A stretch of DNA of 64,000 nt, from the IMG/VR virus record IMGVR_UViG_2939521961_000011. One strand, written 5' to 3'. Of the stretch, positions 3,788 to 63,584 are shown one piece after another. The position numbers and the translations under genes are program-made. The stretch's first letter is position 1. Every line of letters starts with the position of its first letter. Under the pieces are notes generated by a model, which was given only the letters and a program-made list of their open reading frames with translations, did no database searches and was not told the origin of the DNA. This stretch comes from a virus (Duplodnaviria > Heunggongvirae > Uroviricota > Caudoviricetes).

Positions 3788-3943
3788 TTACTCCTCAGGT
3801 TCGTAAGCTGTGAAGACAGCGACCTCCGTCTGGCCGGTTCGGATTCGTACCTCGCAGAGGTCTTTCCTCGTTACCAGTGCCGTCACTATGACGGTTAAAC
3901 AGATGACAATCAGGGCGATTAACATCGCCTTTTGCTGCTTCAT
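3788..3943 (-). CDS. hok: Hok-family type I toxin (HokD/RelF-like)
   Basis: 51 aa MKQQKAMLIALIVICLTVIVTALVTRKDLCEVRIRTGQTEVAVFTAYEPEE, the canonical Hok sequence; AAGGAG RBS. Confidence 0.9.
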   Translation of the reverse strand: MKQQKAMLIALIVICLTVIVTALVTRKDLCEVRIRTGQTEVAVFTAYEPEE

Positions 3944-4170
3944 AGCCTGCTTCTCCTTGCCTTTCGGCACGTAAGAGGCTAACCTACATGTGCAAAGCAT
4001 GAAATTGGCCTCAGATTAATGTTAAGCGTCCTGCAAGACGCGTAATGTTAACTGGGGCTTTTCTCTGTCTGCCTTACGGCGGCATGCCCGAGGCAGACAG
4101 CCTCAAGCACCCGCAGCAATTCTACTTAACTCTTCTTTCCCCGCAAATCATTTTATCCCCGATGGTAATG
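3944..4170. promoter_or_regulatory. hok leader and presumed Sok antisense-RNA region
   Basis: Conserved with the region upstream of the second hok (50011..50220); Hok loci carry an antisense Sok RNA and leader fold-back elements here. Confidence 0.4.
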
Positions 4171-4766: not shown

Positions 4767-5037
4767 GATAACGCCCTCTGGTTGATGAATTTAACTATCA
4801 CCACCTTCAGGTCTCAATCATCAGGTGGCGAGACGTACAGGGTTGAGACTACCGGATCAACCAACCGGCCAGCCTTTCGGCTGCCCCATACGCCTCACCA
4901 TAATTCAGATGTGCGTGCGCATACGACAATAAAAAACACGCTCGCGGCGTGTGTCTGTCGCGGTTGAATATCCGGGGTCTCAATCCCGACGGTCAACTCG
5001 ACCGTGCGGTGAATATAGCCCCGGATTAGTAATTACG

Positions 5038-45570: not shown

Positions 45571-45784
45571 TATTCCTCCCGGCCGGGATAGTGTATTAAA
45601 TCAGATATGGAGTGGGCTGTAGTCCGGAAGCCTGAATGACACACGGGGACTACAGCCCAAGAAATGAAAAAAGGCCACGCAGTTGCGCAGCCTGATAAAC
45701 CCTGGTTAAAATCCACACGATAACAACACAACAATATCAGTATCTCATGCTATTGCCCGAACCCATTCGGGCATTTTTTACCCA

Positions 45785-45816
45785 TAAAAAAGCCCCTCCG
45801 GAGAGGGGCATGTTTG
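45785..45816. terminator. Bidirectional rho-independent terminator
   Basis: gcccctc cgga gaggggc hairpin flanked by an A-run and a T-rich stretch. Confidence 0.4.
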
Positions 45817-46140
45817 CATGCACATTCTTTTTCTTGCATGGTGCCGGGTGCCTCCCGGTGAATTCAGTATCAGCACCTGAATCCGCGATTATCACATATA
45901 CCTGGTTGCTGATTGCCCCTCCGCACAGGGGGATTCACCATGCAGTAGTATTTTTAATAAACAGTAAACAAAAAAATCAAGCATTATGCAGGCTGTTTCT
46001 TTTTATCACCGGCCACAGCAATACCACAATGCCGCAGACCAGCACCCCATCCGCCAGCACCGACATGATTCTGCTGGTGAAATCCACCATCACCACCAGA
46101 AACAGCAGGAGTGCAGCCACAGCCAGGCGCAGTTTTACCG

Positions 46141-49854: not shown

Positions 49855-50010
49855 TTACTTCTCAGATTCGTAGTCTACGAAGACAGCGACCTCCGTCTGA
49901 CCGGTTCGGATTCGCACCTCGCAGAGGTCTTTCCTCGTTACCAGTGCCGTCACTATGACGGTTAAACAGATGACGATCAGGGCGATTAACATCGCCTTTT
50001 GCTGCTTCAT
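49855..50010 (-). CDS. hok: Hok-family type I toxin
   Basis: 51 aa MKQQKAMLIALIVICLTVIVTALVTRKDLCEVRIRTGQTEVAVFVDYESEK; conserved leader/Sok region upstream. Confidence 0.9.
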   Translation of the reverse strand: MKQQKAMLIALIVICLTVIVTALVTRKDLCEVRIRTGQTEVAVFVDYESEK

Positions 50011-50220
50011 AGCCTGCTTCTCCTTGCCTTTCGGCACGTAAGAGGCTAACCTACATGTGTTCAGCATGGATTGAGCCTCAGATTAATGTTAAGCGTCTTG
50101 CAGGACGCGTAATGTTAACTGGGGCTTTTCTCTATCTGCCGTTGGTGTTCATGCCCGAGGCAGATAGCCTCAAGCACCCGCTGCAATTCTACTTAACTAT
50201 CCTTTTCCCGCAAACCGTTT

Positions 50221-55292: not shown

Positions 55293-55380
55293 ACCTTCCT
55301 CGGTTTAGTGTTTTTTTGCGAGTTTAGTGTTTAATAAACCATTAAGTCAAGTATTTGCTTGTTTAGTGATTACTAAAGAT
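55293..55380. promoter_or_regulatory. Immunity-region operators (GTTTAGTG repeats)
   Basis: GGTTTAGTGTTTTTTT, GAGTTTAGTGTTTAAT and GTTTAGTGATTACTAAAG repeats between the divergent cro-like and repressor genes; similar repeats at about 56325-56350. Confidence 0.45.
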
Positions 55381-55761
55381 AATTACCACATGCAAAAAAA
55401 AGAAATTCGCCGTTTACGTCTCAAGGAGTGGTTTAAAGATAAAACTCTGCCACCCAAAGAGAAGAGCTACCTATCTCAACTAATGAGTGGGAGAGCCTCG
55501 TTTGGAGAAAAGGCTGCCAGAAGAATAGAGCAAACATACGGGATGCCGGAAGGGTATCTGGATGCGGAATACGCAGAACAACCGGGGGTTTCTCCACCAC
55601 ATGCAGGGTTAACGTCTAATCAACTGGAATTATTGCAGATTTTTTCAGCCTTCCCTGAGGATGAGCAACGCCAGATAATCAGCGAGTTAAAGCAGAAAAA
55701 AGAATCAATGGAAGATCTCATAGCGAGATGGATTGCGGCGCAAAAATGCCGCCGCGCCTGA
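55327..55761 (+). CDS. racR: Rac-type immunity repressor RacR-like
   Basis: 144-aa ORF (true start may be the internal MQKKEIRR); HTH-containing, divergent from ydaS; Rac gene order. Confidence 0.7.
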   Translation: MFNKPLSQVFACLVITKDNYHMQKKEIRRLRLKEWFKDKTLPPKEKSYLSQLMSGRASFGEKAARRIEQTYGMPEGYLDAEYAEQPGVSPPHAGLTSNQLELLQIFSAFPEDEQRQIISELKQKKESMEDLIARWIAAQKCRRA

Positions 55762-55781
55762 GTTATAAAACCGGAGGAAAC

Positions 55782-55973
55782 ATGAATAGAGCCCTTTCAC
55801 CAATGGTTTCTGAATTTGAAACCATTGAACAAGAAAACAGTTACAACGAATGGCTGCGTGCGAAAGTAGCAACGAGCCTTGCAGATCCGCGCCCAGCAAT
55901 TCCCCATGACGAAGTTGAGCGCAGAATGGCAGAACGCTTTGCTAAGATGCGCAAGGAACGGAGCAAGCAGTAA
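55782..55973 (+). CDS. ParD-like antitoxin
   Basis: 63 aa; stop overlaps the start of the downstream ParE-like toxin (TAAAATG). Confidence 0.55.
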   Translation: MNRALSPMVSEFETIEQENSYNEWLRAKVATSLADPRPAIPHDEVERRMAERFAKMRKERSKQ

Positions 55974-55974
55974 A

Positions 55975-56253
55975 ATGTTACCCGTGTTATGGCTTGAAAG
56001 CGCAGATACCGACCTAGATGATATAACTAGTTATATTGCTCGTTTCGACATAGATGCGGCTGAACGCTTATGGCAGCGATTAAGGGGTTGTGTGCTGCCG
56101 TTATCCGAACATCCGTATTTATACCCACCAAGCGACAGAGTACCTAGCTTGCGTGAGATTGTAGCCCACCCTAACTATATAATTCTATACCGCGTAACAA
56201 CATCAAGCGTTGAAGTAGTAAACGTGATCCACGCAAGACGCCAGTTTCCCTAA
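55975..56253 (+). CDS. ParE/RelE-family toxin
   Basis: 92 aa with the ParE-type pattern ADTDLDDITSYIARFD...YRVTTSSVEVVNVIHARR. Confidence 0.65.
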   Translation: MLPVLWLESADTDLDDITSYIARFDIDAAERLWQRLRGCVLPLSEHPYLYPPSDRVPSLREIVAHPNYIILYRVTTSSVEVVNVIHARRQFP

Positions 56254-56692: not shown

Positions 56693-56884
56693 ACCATTTA
56701 TTGGATTAATTCAATATTCTTGCTGTAGGGGTATAGCCGAGGCCACCAAAGCCCGGAGGTGGTGAAATAAAACCGGGCACAACACGAAGGCGCATTTCCG
56801 GTATCCATAAAGAGTCGGTCTTGTCTGTTAAATTTAAATGGTGGGAGTGCGCCTCCGGTTGTGAATAACAACACTGCTGTGTGT

Positions 56885-56937
56885 AGTCTTGGCGGCATCA
56901 GTTTTTTCTTGAAGTTCGACTGATGTCCGCCCTTTTT
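56885..56937 (+). ncRNA. DicF-like small RNA variant
   Basis: Shares the 5' GGCGGCATCAGTTTT and the terminator end with DicF but the internal segment differs; followed by the same conserved downstream leader as in prophage A. Confidence 0.3.
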
Positions 56938-57112
56938 AAAGTGAATTTTGTGATGCGGTGAATGCGGCTAAGCGCACGCGGCACAGTTAAAAGTCATGTT
57001 AGTCCTTATTGGTTTGGGTGGGAAAGCCGACTGTAATTGTTAACTGGTTGCAGTCACCTGGAGGCACCAGGCACCGCATCAACAAAGTTCATTTGTAAAA
57101 ATGGAGATAATT

Positions 57113-57334
57113 ATGATTGCACATCACTTCGGAACTGATGAAATACCACGTCAGTGTGTGACTCCTGGTGATTATGTTCTTCATGAAGGCCGGACATATA
57201 TCGCCTCGGCAAACAATATTAAAAAGCGAAAACTTTATATTCGTAACCTGACTACAAAAACATGCATTTCTGACTGCATGATTAAAGTCTTCCTCGGTCG
57301 TGATGGTTTACCTGTAAAGGCGGAGTCATGGTGA
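57113..57334 (+). CDS. kilR: Cell-division inhibitor KilR
   Basis: 73 aa [46 protein letters not shown]..., matching my recollection of Rac KilR. Confidence 0.75.
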
Positions 57335-61449: not shown

Positions 61450-61656
61450 ATGACAAAAATTATGAGATATGACGATGTTAAACCATGTCCGTTTTGTGGT
61501 TGTCCATCTGTTACAGTGAAAGCAATTTCAGGATATTACCGGGCAAAATGCAACGGATGCGAATCCCGAACTGGCTATGGTGGAAGTGAAAAAGAAGCAC
61601 TCGAAAGATGGAATAAACGAACTACTGGAAATAATAATGGAGGTGTTCATGTATAA
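61450..61656 (+). CDS. ralR: Restriction alleviation protein Lar (RalR)
   Basis: MTKIMRYDDVKPCPFCGCPSVTVKAISGYYRAKCNGCESRTGYGG... with Cys4 zinc ribbon, as Rac Lar. Confidence 0.8.
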   Translation: MTKIMRYDDVKPCPFCGCPSVTVKAISGYYRAKCNGCESRTGYGGSEKEALERWNKRTTGNNNGGVHV

Positions 61657-61837
61657 AATAACTGCCACTATTGAAAAAGAAGGTGGCACTCCTACTAACT
61701 GGACAAGATATTCAAAATCTAAATTAACGAAATCAGAATGCGAAAAAATGCTCTCAGGGAAAAAAGAAGCAGGCGTGTCCAGAGAGCAGAAAGTAAAGCT
61801 GATAAATTTTAATTGCGAGAAACTTCTGTCCTCGTGA
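61637..61837 (+). CDS. ydaC: YdaC-like small protein
   Basis: Small ORF overlapping the lar 3' end, in the Rac order lar-ydaC-xis-int; start uncertain. Confidence 0.5.
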   Translation: MEVFMYKITATIEKEGGTPTNWTRYSKSKLTKSECEKMLSGKKEAGVSREQKVKLINFNCEKLLSS

Positions 61838-61937: not shown

Positions 61938-62225
61938 ATGGCAATGAATCTTGTGACACTCAAAACGTGGGGAAAACTCAGATATCCGGATAACCCACCA
62001 TCAATATCAACGCTGAGACGATGGGCAAGGAATGGAAACATTTATCCTGCACCTGAACTACACGGGAGGAGTTACAGGGTGGTTCCGGAAGCTTTCTATA
62101 TCAACCCAAATAAGGTTGATACCGATATAACACACCATCAGCCTAATGGGCGACAAGGGAGAGACAGTCCGTTACTGGAGAAGTTAAAACATGCAGCGGA
62201 AAAAATACGATCCCAATTTACCTAA
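61938..62225 (+). CDS. xis: Excisionase (lambda Xis-like)
   Basis: 95 aa with the W.K..YPDNPPSISTLRRWARNGNIYPAP..HGRSY pattern resembling lambda Xis; overlaps the int start. Confidence 0.6.
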   Translation: MAMNLVTLKTWGKLRYPDNPPSISTLRRWARNGNIYPAPELHGRSYRVVPEAFYINPNKVDTDITHHQPNGRQGRDSPLLEKLKHAAEKIRSQFT

Positions 62226-63306
62226 AAACTTAACATATCGAAGGAGGGACAAAGCATATTACTGGCGCAACCCTCTGACGAAAGAAGAATTTACACTAGG
62301 TAAAATTTCAAGAAGAGATGCAGTAGCGCAGGCAATTGAAGCAAATCATTATATATACAAAAACTACTCTCCTGCTGCCTTAATTGAAAAACTAAAAGGG
62401 TTCGACTCATTTACTATGGCAGACTGGATTGAACGTTACAAAACGATTCTTATAAGGAGAAAAGTGTCCAGAAATACTTATAAAATTCGGGTAAATCAAC
62501 TGGAGACAATAAAAGAAAAATTAGGAGGGGTTTTACTGACAGAAATAACCACTCGCCATATTGCCGAGTTTCTTGATTTGTGGATTGAAGGAGGGAAAAA
62601 CACGATGGCAGGATCAATGCGTTCTGTGTTATCTGATATGTTCCGCGAGGCCATTGTTGAAGGACGTATATCTCAAAATCCAGTAACGCCAACAAGAGCA
62701 CCGAAAATAGTAGTTACAAGAGAACGGCTGAAACTAAAGACATACAACTGCATCAGGGAGGCAGCAGATCAACTTCCGACATGGTTCCCATTAGCTATGG
62801 ACTTAGCCCTTGTAACAGGACAACGTCGCGAAGACATAACAAATATGCGGTTCAGTGAGATTTATGATGATCGTCTCCACATCAGGCAAATTAAGACAGG
62901 AATGATGATTGCTATCCCCCTGTCACTCAGCCTTCCTGTCGCTGGTTTACGACTTGGTACAGTAGTTGAACAGTGCCGCATGGTAAGTAGGGGGGATTAT
63001 CTAATCAGTGCCGGGATTAGAAAAAACAGCCCTGACGGCAGCATTCACCCGGACGGCCTGACAAAGAAATTTGTCGCAGCCAGAAAATTAACAGGTATCC
63101 AGTTCAGTGAAAACCCACCAACTTTTCACGAGATCAGAAGCCTGGCTGGACGATTGTACAAAGAAACATGTGGGGAAGAATTTGCTCAACGTCTACTTGG
63201 CCACACATCGGAGAAGACAACAAAAATGTATCTTGATGAGAGAGAAAAAACGTACTACTGCTCTGATTTTAACGTAAATGGATTGTTAAATGTGTTTTGG
63301 TTGTGA
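62191..63306 (+). CDS. int: Lambda-family tyrosine integrase
   Basis: 371 aa; N-terminus [27 protein letters not shown] and C-terminus [15 protein letters not shown]...[13 protein letters not shown] parallel lambda Int. Confidence 0.9.
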
Positions 63307-63584
63307 TATAACCAAAAAAGACCGGAATACAGAAATTCGAGTAAATTTCGAGTAATTTCGGGGAGACGTTTGCAACTAATTGATTTTAAATACAATTAAA
63401 AAAAGACCGAATACGATTCCTGTATTCGGTCCAGGGAAATGGCTCTTGGGAGAGAGCCGTGCGCTAAAAGTTGGCATTAATGCAGGCTTAGTTGCCTTGC
63501 CCTTTAAGAATAGATGACGACGCCAGGTTTTCCAGTTTGCGTGCAAAATGGTCAATAAAAAGCGTGGTGGTCATCAGCTGAAAT

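What the first reader, a model, noticed from the sequence alone, without database searches (positions are those of the whole stretch)
56885..56937. Canonical DicF in prophage A and a DicF-like variant with a replaced internal segment in prophage B
10590..10648 matches DicF with one mismatch. At the equivalent position upstream of kilR, prophage B has an element with the same 5' end (GGCGGCATCAGTTTT) and terminator but a different internal sequence, followed by the same conserved leader (AAGTGAATTTTGTGATGCGGTGAATGCGGCTAAGCGCACGCGG). If expressed, the variant may have different target specificity or be only a terminator remnant.
Basis: partly seen in the sequence, partly recalled or inferred. 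Interest (0 to 1): 0.5.

Follow-up and report, generated by a model that had tools for sequence, protein, structure and literature searches.

The report
KilS sRNA: RprA seed, DicF hairpin
The "DicF-like variant" is the 3' half of KilS, a small RNA already annotated upstream of kilR in the E. coli K-12 Rac prophage. What seems unreported is that KilS joins the target-recognition segment of the core small RNA RprA to a DicF-type terminator hairpin, which predicts it acts on RprA targets such as csgD rather than on ftsZ.

Summary
DicF lies at 10590-10642 with one mismatch to K-12. A related hairpin plus the same leader lies at 56891-56937, upstream of kilR.

The feature is not new. It is the 3' half of KilS (window 56841-56937), 94% identical to K-12 kilS (b4833). 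In K-12, KilS is a northern-verified, Hfq-dependent, stationary-phase sRNA with its own start site.

- Only the hairpin stem, U-tail and leader are shared with DicF.
- Both pairing modules of DicF are absent: the 5' seed and the ftsZ-complementary loop.

The segment just 5' of the hairpin (56860-56893) is homologous to the core sRNA RprA, with 16 identical bases.
- It starts where K-12 data place an RNase E cut, co-linear with processed RprA.
- It is the most conserved part in divergent phage copies.
- It is a perfect 16-nt complement to the csgD 5' UTR.
- KilS's reported RIL-seq partner, yncL, is also an RprA target.

Related phage contigs show a mosaic family in which 5' segments, loops and downstream kil genes reassort.

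Verdict: a known sRNA, with a testable and apparently unreported RprA-mimic reading.

The parts
56826..56834 (+). Putative extended -10 promoter element (TGtTAAATT) for KilS
   Evidence: Read from the sequence. It sits at -15 to -7 relative to the start site mapped in K-12. The window is identical to K-12 over this stretch. K-12 TSS 1418502 comes from Thomason 2015 as cited in PMC8175672 Suppl. Table 6. The simple sigma-70 scan found no -35/-10 pair, so this assignment is an inference.
56841..56937 (+). KilS small RNA, full-length ortholog (97 nt)
   Evidence: It differs from K-12 ncRNA kilS (b4833; 1418405-1418502, minus strand; 98 nt) by 5 substitutions and one T fewer in the loop. It lies in the same position upstream of kilR.
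56872..56937 (+). Predicted RNase E-processed KilS (66 nt): single-stranded RprA-like 5' end plus terminator hairpin
   Evidence: The K-12 RNase E site at 1418471 corresponds to KilS nt 32 (Clarke 2014 data in PMC8175672 Suppl. Table 6). It is co-linear with processed RprA, the last 47 nt of RprA, which starts AUUGCUG (PMC9262595). The transfer to this window is an inference.
56860..56893 (+). Block homologous to core sRNA RprA (RprA nt 47-80); exact identity over 56875-56890 (TGCTGTGTGTAGTCTT)
   Evidence: Rfam RprA partial hit. Alignment. Local alignment score 38, against a maximum of 29 in 1000 dinucleotide shuffles. The 14-mer occurs once in the window against 0.01 expected. It is the most conserved part across divergent phage copies.
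56872..56887 (+). 16-nt perfect complement (CACUGCUGUGUGUAGU) to the K-12 csgD 5' UTR at -99..-84
   Evidence: Windowed RNAduplex gives -29.6 kcal/mol, z = -4.1 against shuffles (0 of 60). RprA at the same site gives -25.5.
56891..56937 (+). DicF-type intrinsic terminator: 13-bp stem with one bulged U (56891-56931), then C and U5 (56933-56937)
   Evidence: Fold energy -19.5 kcal/mol, z = -3.7. The Rfam DicF model aligns to it. Across 18 mosaic variants the stem is 98.2% paired, with 3 pairs changed on both sides.
56938..57112 (+). Conserved structured leader shared with the dicF-dicB locus (STnc100-like)
   Evidence: The first 44 nt are identical to prophage A, and the core TCACCTGGAGGCACCAGGCAC is conserved. 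Rfam STnc100 scores 37.4 bits, below its gathering score of 47.
57113..57334 (+). kilR (FtsZ inhibitor of Rac-type prophages)
   Evidence: ORF listed. RefSeq names it kilR in the 100% identical stretch of strain E2865. Same start as K-12 kilR. No Pfam family matched.
10590..10647 (+). Canonical DicF (53 nt, 10590-10642) plus T-tail, in prophage A
   Evidence: Rfam 75 bits. One mismatch to K-12 dicF, A39G at 10628.
10817..11005 (+). dicB downstream of DicF
   Evidence: Pfam DicB, 125.5 bits.

Best explanation
Window 56841-56937 is the ortholog of KilS, the small RNA made from the 5' leader of kilR in Rac-type prophages. The flagged 53 bases are only its terminator half.

Proposed mechanism:
1. 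Transcription starts at an extended -10 promoter about 270 nt upstream of kilR and mostly stops at the strong hairpin-U5 terminator. The start site is shown in K-12 and inferred here.
2. In cis, the terminator helps keep the toxic kilR gene silent. This step is inferred.
3. The terminated RNA is stabilised by Hfq. This is shown in K-12.
4. RNase E cuts at nt 32, exposing a single-stranded 5' end. The site is mapped in K-12; its role is inferred.
5. That 5' end is a copy of the seed of processed RprA. KilS is therefore expected to pair in trans with RprA targets. These include yncL (chimeras reported for both RNAs) and the 5'-proximal site of csgD mRNA (predicted here). It is not expected to act on DicF targets such as ftsZ or xylR.

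In evolutionary terms, KilS and DicF are two members of a mosaic family of prophage sRNAs. The family shares one terminator scaffold and one downstream leader, while 5' segments, loops and kil genes are exchanged.
For: Identity with KilS:
- K-12 annotation and sequence.
- The same locus occurs in 1772 of 5426 complete E. coli genomes, unannotated outside K-12.
- It also occurs in inducible Rac-like phages.

Expression in K-12 (PMC8175672):
- Northern signal is present in wild type, absent in the hfq deletion, and accumulates in stationary phase.
- The RNA has its own TSS, one internal RNase E site, and yncL as the reported RIL-seq target.

Relation to DicF:
- The Rfam DicF model scores 42.8 bits.
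- The two loci share 54 identical bases spanning the 3' stem, the tail and the start of the leader.
- DUF1391 genes lie upstream in both prophages.
- The hairpin shows covariation across variants.

Relation to RprA:
- 16 identical bases within a block of about 34 nt, 0 of 1000 shuffles reaching the score. DicF shows no such similarity.
- The block begins at the RNase E site, as in processed RprA.
- It is the best-conserved segment in PhiR5_2, GER2 and Citrobacter phage phiNP, where the flanks, the loop and even the downstream gene differ.
- yncL is a common RIL-seq and TRIC-seq target of RprA (bioRxiv 10.1101/2025.09.11.675593).
- There is a perfect 16-nt complement to the csgD 5' UTR, with z = -4.1.

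Mosaic family.
Against: - No expression data exist for this strain.
- KilS is a low-abundance RNA with only 3 RIL-seq interactions.
- In the predicted full-length fold, the seed is largely paired with nt 3-12.
- The predicted KilS-yncL duplex is no better than shuffles (z = -0.55). That link therefore rests on published chimeras. These could in principle be contaminated by mis-mapped RprA reads, because the two RNAs share 16-17 bases.
- One of the two published northern probes overlaps the RprA-like block.
- The csgD pairing is a prediction only.
- The simple promoter scan found no sigma-70 site.
- The cis role of the terminator for kilR is not tested anywhere I could find.
Confidence: 0.7

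Rival explanations
1. The element is only a cis-acting terminator/attenuator that keeps kilR silent. The short RNA is a by-product without trans targets, and its resemblance to RprA has no function.
For: - It lies in the 5' leader of a toxic gene.
- The hairpin is strong, -19.5 kcal/mol.
- RIL-seq interactions are few and abundance is low.
- The energy-based yncL prediction is not significant.
Against: - The RprA-like block, not the hairpin loop or the 5' part, is the most conserved segment in divergent phages. This includes a Citrobacter phage where the downstream gene and leader are different.
- Accumulation depends on Hfq and the RNA has its own promoter.
- yncL is a partner shared with RprA.
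- A terminator alone does not need a conserved 16-nt single-stranded segment.
Confidence: 0.2
2. One reading: a DicF paralog of about 53 nt that still acts like DicF, inhibiting cell division through ftsZ mRNA, with somewhat altered specificity.
For: - The hairpin scaffold, position and leader are shared with DicF.
- The downstream gene is again an FtsZ inhibitor.
- Chimeras with a KilS 5' part and a DicF loop exist in other phage contigs (L094, L116).
Against: - The DicF segments shown to pair with ftsZ/pykA (3' part) and xylR (5' end) (PMC5069750) are both absent.
- The best KilS-ftsZ duplex is no better than shuffles (z = +0.18). This windowed test has low power, however: the validated DicF-ftsZ pair scores only z = -0.61.
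- The K-12 RNA is 98 nt with a different 5' end.
- The Rfam score is below the gathering score.
Confidence: 0.05
3. The locus is silent in this strain: a decaying copy in a cryptic prophage that is not transcribed.
For: There are no expression data for this strain, and there are five substitutions and one indel relative to K-12.
Against: - The promoter region, start site, seed and hairpin are intact, and -26 to +12 is identical to K-12.
- The substitutions preserve the hairpin pairing (A-U in place of G-U).
- One substitution (U34C) improves complementarity to csgD.
- The same allele recurs in 9 of the loci read, including L001 (the E2865 copy) and the window itself.
Confidence: 0.05

Closest known systems
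KilS (kilS, b4833), sRNA from the kilR 5' UTR of the E. coli K-12 Rac prophage (Bar et al. 2021, PMC8175672)
   Same: Orthologous sequence (about 94% identity over 98 nt). Same promoter region, same terminator, same position upstream of kilR.
   Different: - Five substitutions and one fewer U in the loop.
- K-12 has sieB inserted upstream, which is absent here.
- The host prophage here carries a PaaA2-ParE toxin-antitoxin pair.
- The published description does not mention DicF (0 occurrences). None of my literature searches found a paper linking KilS to RprA or DicF.
DicF (Rfam RF00039), Qin-type prophage sRNA upstream of dicB
   Same: - Terminator hairpin base and 5' arm, CCC-U5 tail, and the first 44 nt of the downstream leader are identical.
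- The operon position is the same: DUF1391 gene, then sRNA, then structured leader, then an FtsZ-inhibitor gene.
- Both accumulate in stationary phase, bind or depend on Hfq, and involve RNase E.
   Different: - No DicF 5' seed and no ftsZ-complementary loop.
- Below the Rfam gathering score (42.8 against 48).
- KilS has its own start site, whereas DicF is processed from the long dicBF transcript.
- Primary length is 97-98 nt rather than 53 nt.
RprA (Rfam RF00034), core Rcs-controlled sRNA, especially its processed 47-nt form
   Same: - The single-stranded segment directly 5' of the terminator, (A)UUGCUGUGUGUAGUCUU, plus about 15 nt upstream, is shared.
- An RNase E cut lies at the equivalent position.
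- The partner yncL is shared, and the predicted csgD site is the same.
   Different: - KilS lacks RprA's 5' hairpins and its rpoS-pairing segment (nt 32-52).
- The terminator is different.
- The Rfam score is 24.5 bits against a gathering score of 70.
- KilS is prophage-borne rather than core, so it is presumably not under Rcs control (not tested).
Prophage anti-sRNAs AgvB/AsxR of EHEC (Tree et al. 2014, PMC4104026). An AgvB copy lies in this window at 45718-45779.
   Same: They are prophage-encoded, Hfq-dependent RNAs that plug into a core sRNA network.
   Different: AgvB mimics an mRNA target and sponges GcvB (as I recall from that paper). KilS carries the same-sense seed of a core sRNA, so it would imitate the regulator, not the target.

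Membership tests
KilS (K-12 b4833) | Full-length sequence orthology to K-12 kilS | tested here: met
   5 substitutions and a 1-nt indel over 98 nt.
KilS (K-12 b4833) | Located in the kilR 5' leader, on the same strand, ending at an intrinsic terminator about 175 nt before the kilR start codon | tested here: met
KilS (K-12 b4833) | Own transcription start site, Hfq-dependent accumulation, stationary-phase expression | not testable with these tools
   Only sequence conservation could be checked: the region from -26 to +12 is identical to K-12. The experimental data are from K-12.
DicF (Rfam RF00039) | Covariance-model score at or above the gathering score (48 bits) | tested here: not met
   42.8 bits at 56878-56932. 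It was not reported in the gathering-threshold scan.
DicF (Rfam RF00039) | 5' single-stranded segment UUUCUGGUGACGUUU (xylR pairing) | tested here: not met
   Replaced by GCUGUGUGUAGUCUU. The function of the DicF segment is from PMC5069750.
DicF (Rfam RF00039) | Loop/3' arm ACUCCGUGACUGCUCUGCC complementary to the ftsZ ribosome-binding region | tested here: not met
   The loop here is UUUUUUCUUGAAGUUCG. DicF nt 31-52 pair with ftsZ -29..-7 in the windowed duplex, and KilS has no equivalent.
DicF (Rfam RF00039) | GGCGG/CCGCC-based terminator hairpin with U-tail, followed by the conserved leader and a cell-division-inhibitor gene | tested here: met
RprA (Rfam RF00034) | Covariance-model score at or above the gathering score (70 bits) | tested here: not met
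   24.5 bits, E 1.5.
RprA (Rfam RF00034) | Seed of the processed form, AUUGCUGUGUGUAGUCUUUG, directly 5' of the terminator | tested here: met
   16 identical bases in the window copy and 21 of 22 in Citrobacter phage phiNP. 0 of 1000 shuffles reach the alignment score.
RprA (Rfam RF00034) | 5' hairpin and rpoS-leader pairing segment (RprA nt 32-52 in my prediction) | tested here: not met
   There is no homologous sequence upstream of KilS nt 20. RprA nt 32-52 pair with rpoS -112..-93, and KilS has no such site.
RprA (Rfam RF00034) | Core-genome locus under Rcs control | not tested
   KilS lies in a prophage. Its promoter was not compared with the rprA promoter.

The most novel reading that the evidence does not exclude
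KilS is a prophage-borne functional mimic of the core sRNA RprA. A Rac-type phage captured the seed of processed RprA and mounted it on the DicF-type terminator scaffold. The prophage could then repress csgD (curli and biofilm) and other RprA targets independently of the Rcs envelope-stress signal. More generally, the sRNA slot upstream of lambdoid kil genes would be a modular cassette in which seeds, loops and kill genes are exchanged by recombination. DicF and KilS would be just the two named members.
Probability: 0.5. Interest if true: 0.65.

Novelty: already known. Interest (0 to 1): 0.45.

Why it matters
The flagged element does not add a new kind of feature. It is an ortholog of an annotated sRNA, and multi-copy DicF in pathogenic E. 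coli is well known.

Two things do matter:
- **A testable function for KilS.** KilS has had no assigned function, only one reported partner (yncL). The sequence evidence here gives it concrete targets: the RprA seed, with csgD and yncL as candidates. It also gives an evolutionary origin, an RprA seed on a DicF scaffold. About a third of complete E. coli genomes carry this locus, so a prophage copy of the RprA seed could affect biofilm and envelope-stress regulation in many strains.
- **An annotation gap.** Rfam-based pipelines miss these variants. They score 39-43 bits against a gathering score of 48, and RefSeq shows no feature at this locus outside K-12.

Tried and rejected
- **Genome-contig scan.** I used the gapped pattern TGTGTAGTN{2,8}GGYGGCATC to get the taxonomic spread. 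The pattern was too loose for 596 Gb. It returned 120 chance hits in unrelated phyla, and only Escherichia ruysiae (L200) looks plausible.
- **E2865 coordinates.** I assumed the window is collinear with strain E2865 to read its annotation at the DicF locus. It is not; the computed coordinates landed on uspF/ompN.
- **Unrestricted RNAduplex.** Run on full-length RNAs it gave meaningless duplexes with huge loops. I replaced it with 22 x 26-nt windows.
- **Energy tests.** The test of KilS-yncL pairing against shuffles was not significant (z = -0.55). The validated DicF-ftsZ pair also scores poorly (z = -0.61), so this test has low power.
- **Other 5' modules.** I asked whether CCAUGUUGAUUACCUUUU or GUUGAUUGGUACC mimic other known sRNAs. 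Rfam E-value scans of L106 and L052 gave nothing except sub-threshold DicF. A 9-nt match of L052 to OmrA/B that I recalled from memory is not supported.
- **In-window target.** I searched the window for a complement of the seed and found none.
- **Papers not held.** Faubladier & Bouché 1994 (PMC205167), which I recall as describing dicF-like sequences in other prophages, is not in the library. Whether the Rac element was already called dicF-like in 1994 therefore could not be checked. The Melamed 2016 RIL-seq supplements are not held either.
- **Promoter scan.** The simple sigma-70 scan found nothing upstream of KilS. The extended -10 is my reading.

Full report
**1. The observation**

The window is E. 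coli. A 331-base stretch around the finding is 100% identical to strain E2865, although the window as a whole is not collinear with that genome.

Rfam at gathering thresholds finds DicF at 10591-10642 with 75 bits. Compared with K-12 dicF (b1574), window 10590-10642 has one difference, A39G at 10628. The ORF that follows at 10817-11005 is DicB (Pfam, 125 bits).

Aligning the two loci shows the following for prophage B:
- It has GGCGGCATCAGTTTT where DicF has GGCGGTATCAGTTTT.
- Its loop is different and longer.
- It has the 3' arm ACTGATGTCCGCCC.
- The tail and the next 44 bases of leader are identical. Further conserved blocks follow, up to the start codon of kilR at 57113.

The Rfam DicF model aligns to 56878-56932 at 42.8 bits. 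This is E 3.8e-8 in a 451-base search, but below the gathering score of 48.

**2. What the element is**

K-12 MG1655 annotates an ncRNA, kilS (b4833), at 1418405-1418502 on the minus strand. It is 98 nt long and lies upstream of kilR in the Rac prophage. Its sequence is the ortholog of window 56841-56937, with five substitutions and one fewer T in the loop. The flagged 56885-56937 is therefore the 3' 53 nt of a 97-nt RNA.

KilS was predicted from RIL-seq data and verified by northern blot by Bar et al. 2021 (PMC8175672):
- The signal is present in wild type, absent in the hfq deletion, and accumulates in stationary phase.
- The authors conclude it can be transcribed from its own promoter.
- yncL is listed as its RIL-seq target.
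- Their Supplementary Table 6 gives a TSS at 1418502 and a single RNase E site inside the RNA at 1418471, which is KilS nt 32.

The window is identical to K-12 from -26 to +12 around the start site. I read an extended -10 element, TGtTAAATT, at 56826-56834. The simple promoter scan found nothing there.

The locus is common. 1772 of 5426 complete E. coli genomes carry at least 80% of the 331-base query, with no annotated feature under the match in any of the 30 records listed. Inducible Rac-like phages such as Rac-SA53 carry it too.

**3. Relation to DicF**

Shared features:
- The base of the hairpin, its 5' arm, the CCC-U5 tail and the structured leader. The leader is an STnc100-like sub-threshold hit of 37.4 bits.
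- The operon layout, with a DUF1391 gene upstream in both prophages and an FtsZ inhibitor downstream.

Features not shared are the two parts of DicF that do the pairing. According to PMC5069750, the 5' end of DicF pairs with xylR and the 3' part pairs with ftsZ and pykA.
- My windowed duplex search recovers DicF nt 31-52 against ftsZ -29..-7.
- KilS has neither segment.
- The best KilS-ftsZ duplex is no better than shuffles (z = +0.18). That test has low power, because the validated DicF-ftsZ pair scores only z = -0.61.

KilS also folds into a much stronger hairpin: 13 bp with one bulged U, at -19.5 kcal/mol and z = -3.7. DicF gives -15.4 kcal/mol.

**4. The RprA block**

The permissive Rfam scan gave a weak RprA hit (24.5 bits, E 1.5) whose core was an exact run. 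Alignment with K-12 rprA shows:
- TGCTGTGTGTAGTCTT (56875-56890) is identical to RprA nt 62-77.
- Similarity extends over RprA nt 47-80. The local alignment score is 38, against a maximum of 29 in 1000 shuffles.
- K-12 KilS, phage PhiR5_2 and Citrobacter phage phiNP give scores of 36-40, also 0 of 1000.
- DicF shows no similarity to RprA.

The block sits directly 5' of the terminator, where DicF has its own 5' seed.

Processed RprA is the last 47 nt of RprA (PMC9262595), so it starts at AUUGCUGUGUG. The RNase E site mapped in K-12 KilS at nt 32 gives a product starting CAUUGCUGUGUG, offset by one base.

In divergent copies from phages PhiR5_2, GER2 and phiNP, this block is the best-conserved part. 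The upstream sequence and the loop differ. In phiNP the leader and the downstream gene differ as well.

**5. Targets**

yncL is reported as a KilS partner. It is also among the targets of RprA common to RIL-seq and TRIC-seq (bioRxiv 10.1101/2025.09.11.675593). RprA and KilS give their best local duplex at the same yncL site, +96..+121, through the shared block. The energy is not better than shuffles for KilS, however. This link therefore rests on the published chimeras, not on my prediction.

For csgD, a validated RprA target (as summarised in PMC5861431), the 5' UTR contains UACUACACACAGCAGUGCA at -99..-81.
- Window KilS 56872-56887 is a perfect 16-nt complement. The duplex energy is -29.6 kcal/mol, with z = -4.1 and 0 of 60 shuffles as good.
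- K-12 KilS gives -27.2 and RprA gives -25.5.
- The U34C difference between K-12 and this window turns a G-U pair into a G-C pair in that duplex.
- KilS lacks the RprA segment that I predict pairs with the rpoS leader.

In the predicted full-length fold, the seed is mostly paired with nt 3-12. In the processed form it is as free as in processed RprA.

**6. A mosaic family**

I anchored on the shared leader in IMG/VR and read the 110 bases upstream in the 125 anchor matches found across all loci held and the window. Besides canonical DicF and KilS there are:
- KilS 5' parts joined to the DicF loop, upstream of kilR (L094, L116).
- Qin-type upstream sequence with UGUGUAGUCUUUG and the DicF loop, where the stem carries the compensatory change GGTGG/CCACC (L006, L027, L117).
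- At least three further 5' segments and four further loops.
- Three different downstream genes: dicB, kilR and a third type.

Over 18 distinct variants the stem is 98.2% paired, with three pairs changed on both sides. The other 5' modules gave no hit to any Rfam family.

**7. Mechanism and confidence**

| Step | Status |
|---|---|
| Orthology to KilS | Shown here |
| Homology of the hairpin and leader to DicF | Shown here |
| Homology of the pre-hairpin block to RprA | Shown here |
| Absence of the DicF pairing modules | Shown here |
| Complementarity to csgD | Shown here |
| Stable Hfq-dependent RNA, TSS, RNase E site, yncL chimeras | Shown by others, in K-12 |
| Expression in this strain | Inferred |
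| Processing frees the seed | Inferred |
| Regulation of csgD and yncL through the seed | Inferred |
| The terminator limits kilR expression in cis | Inferred |

The main caveat is that KilS and RprA share 16-17 bases. RIL-seq read assignment could be affected, and so could one of the two published probes.

**8. Novelty**

The feature is already known as KilS, and multi-copy DicF in EHEC is known (PMC7873438). In the library I could search, no paper links KilS to DicF or to RprA. The KilS paper never mentions DicF.

I recall that Faubladier & Bouché 1994 described dicF-like sequences in other prophages, possibly including Rac. That paper is not held, so prior knowledge of the DicF relationship cannot be excluded. 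The RprA relationship appears unreported and is directly testable.

Noticed in passing
window 56934-57120 and 10644-10820; also 45780-45969 (-): The leader between the sRNA terminator and the kil gene matches Rfam STnc100 below threshold (37.4 bits). It has a long-range stem, GAUGCGGUG/CACCGCAUC, enclosing the hairpin CCUGG-AGGCA-CCAGG. A full STnc100 copy (147.8 bits) lies at 45780-45969 on the minus strand, with no DicF/KilS hairpin upstream. In Qin this leader is where RNase III makes the 72-nt DicF 3' end (PMC5069750). Its function is otherwise unknown.
   Followed up: partly
window 45718-45779 (+), abutting 45780-45969 (-): An AgvB anti-GcvB sRNA (96.5 bits) lies tail to tail with the STnc100 copy. 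The two convergent RNAs end at adjacent bases.
   Followed up: no
IMG/VR loci L004-L123 (e.g. L094, L116, L006, L027, L117, L106, L052, L090, L022): The sRNA slot upstream of dicB, kilR or a third gene is mosaic. At least five 5' segments and six loops occur in different combinations on one terminator scaffold, including KilS/DicF chimeras. None reach the Rfam DicF gathering score where tested (L052: 38.8 bits).
   Followed up: partly
K-12 yncL 3' end (L125 about 11980-12100, minus strand; yncL +96..+121): The best predicted pairing site for both RprA and KilS on yncL lies just after the stop codon, not at the ribosome-binding site. It is followed by a terminator-like hairpin. The yncL 3' UTR might itself be an RNA partner or sponge rather than a classical target.
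   Followed up: no
window 56874 (KilS nt 34): The C here (U in K-12 KilS and in RprA) extends the perfect complementarity to the csgD 5' UTR to 16 nt. This allele recurs in 9 of the loci read, including L001 (the E2865 copy) and the window itself.
   Followed up: partly
window 55728-56253: A PaaA2 antitoxin (Pfam 69.9 bits) and a ParE toxin (58.9 bits) lie between the repressor-like gene (55327-55761) and the DUF1391 gene. Prophage B therefore resembles the CP-933P type of Rac relative. K-12 Rac has no such pair at this position and has sieB instead, which is absent here.
   Followed up: partly
window 62191-63306 and 63394-63538: A 371-aa ORF, probably the integrase (not checked), ends 88 bases before the convergent SraC/RyeA-SdsR/RyeB sRNA pair. 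Prophage B therefore seems to be integrated next to that sRNA locus. I recall this locus as a described insertion hot spot in Salmonella.
   Followed up: no
window 3938-4112 (-), 50005-50179 (-), 4821-5005 (-), 61655-61833 (-): There are two sok-type antitoxin RNAs, one per prophage region. There is also a C4 antisense RNA with an adjacent isrK-like RNA, and RalA antisense to ralR. The window is unusually dense in prophage regulatory RNAs.
   Followed up: no
window 10628: The DicF copy carries A39G. In the predicted DicF-ftsZ duplex this base falls in an interior loop and does not change the energy (-22.1 for both). The same allele occurs in 5 of the loci read, the window's own copy among them.
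   Followed up: partly
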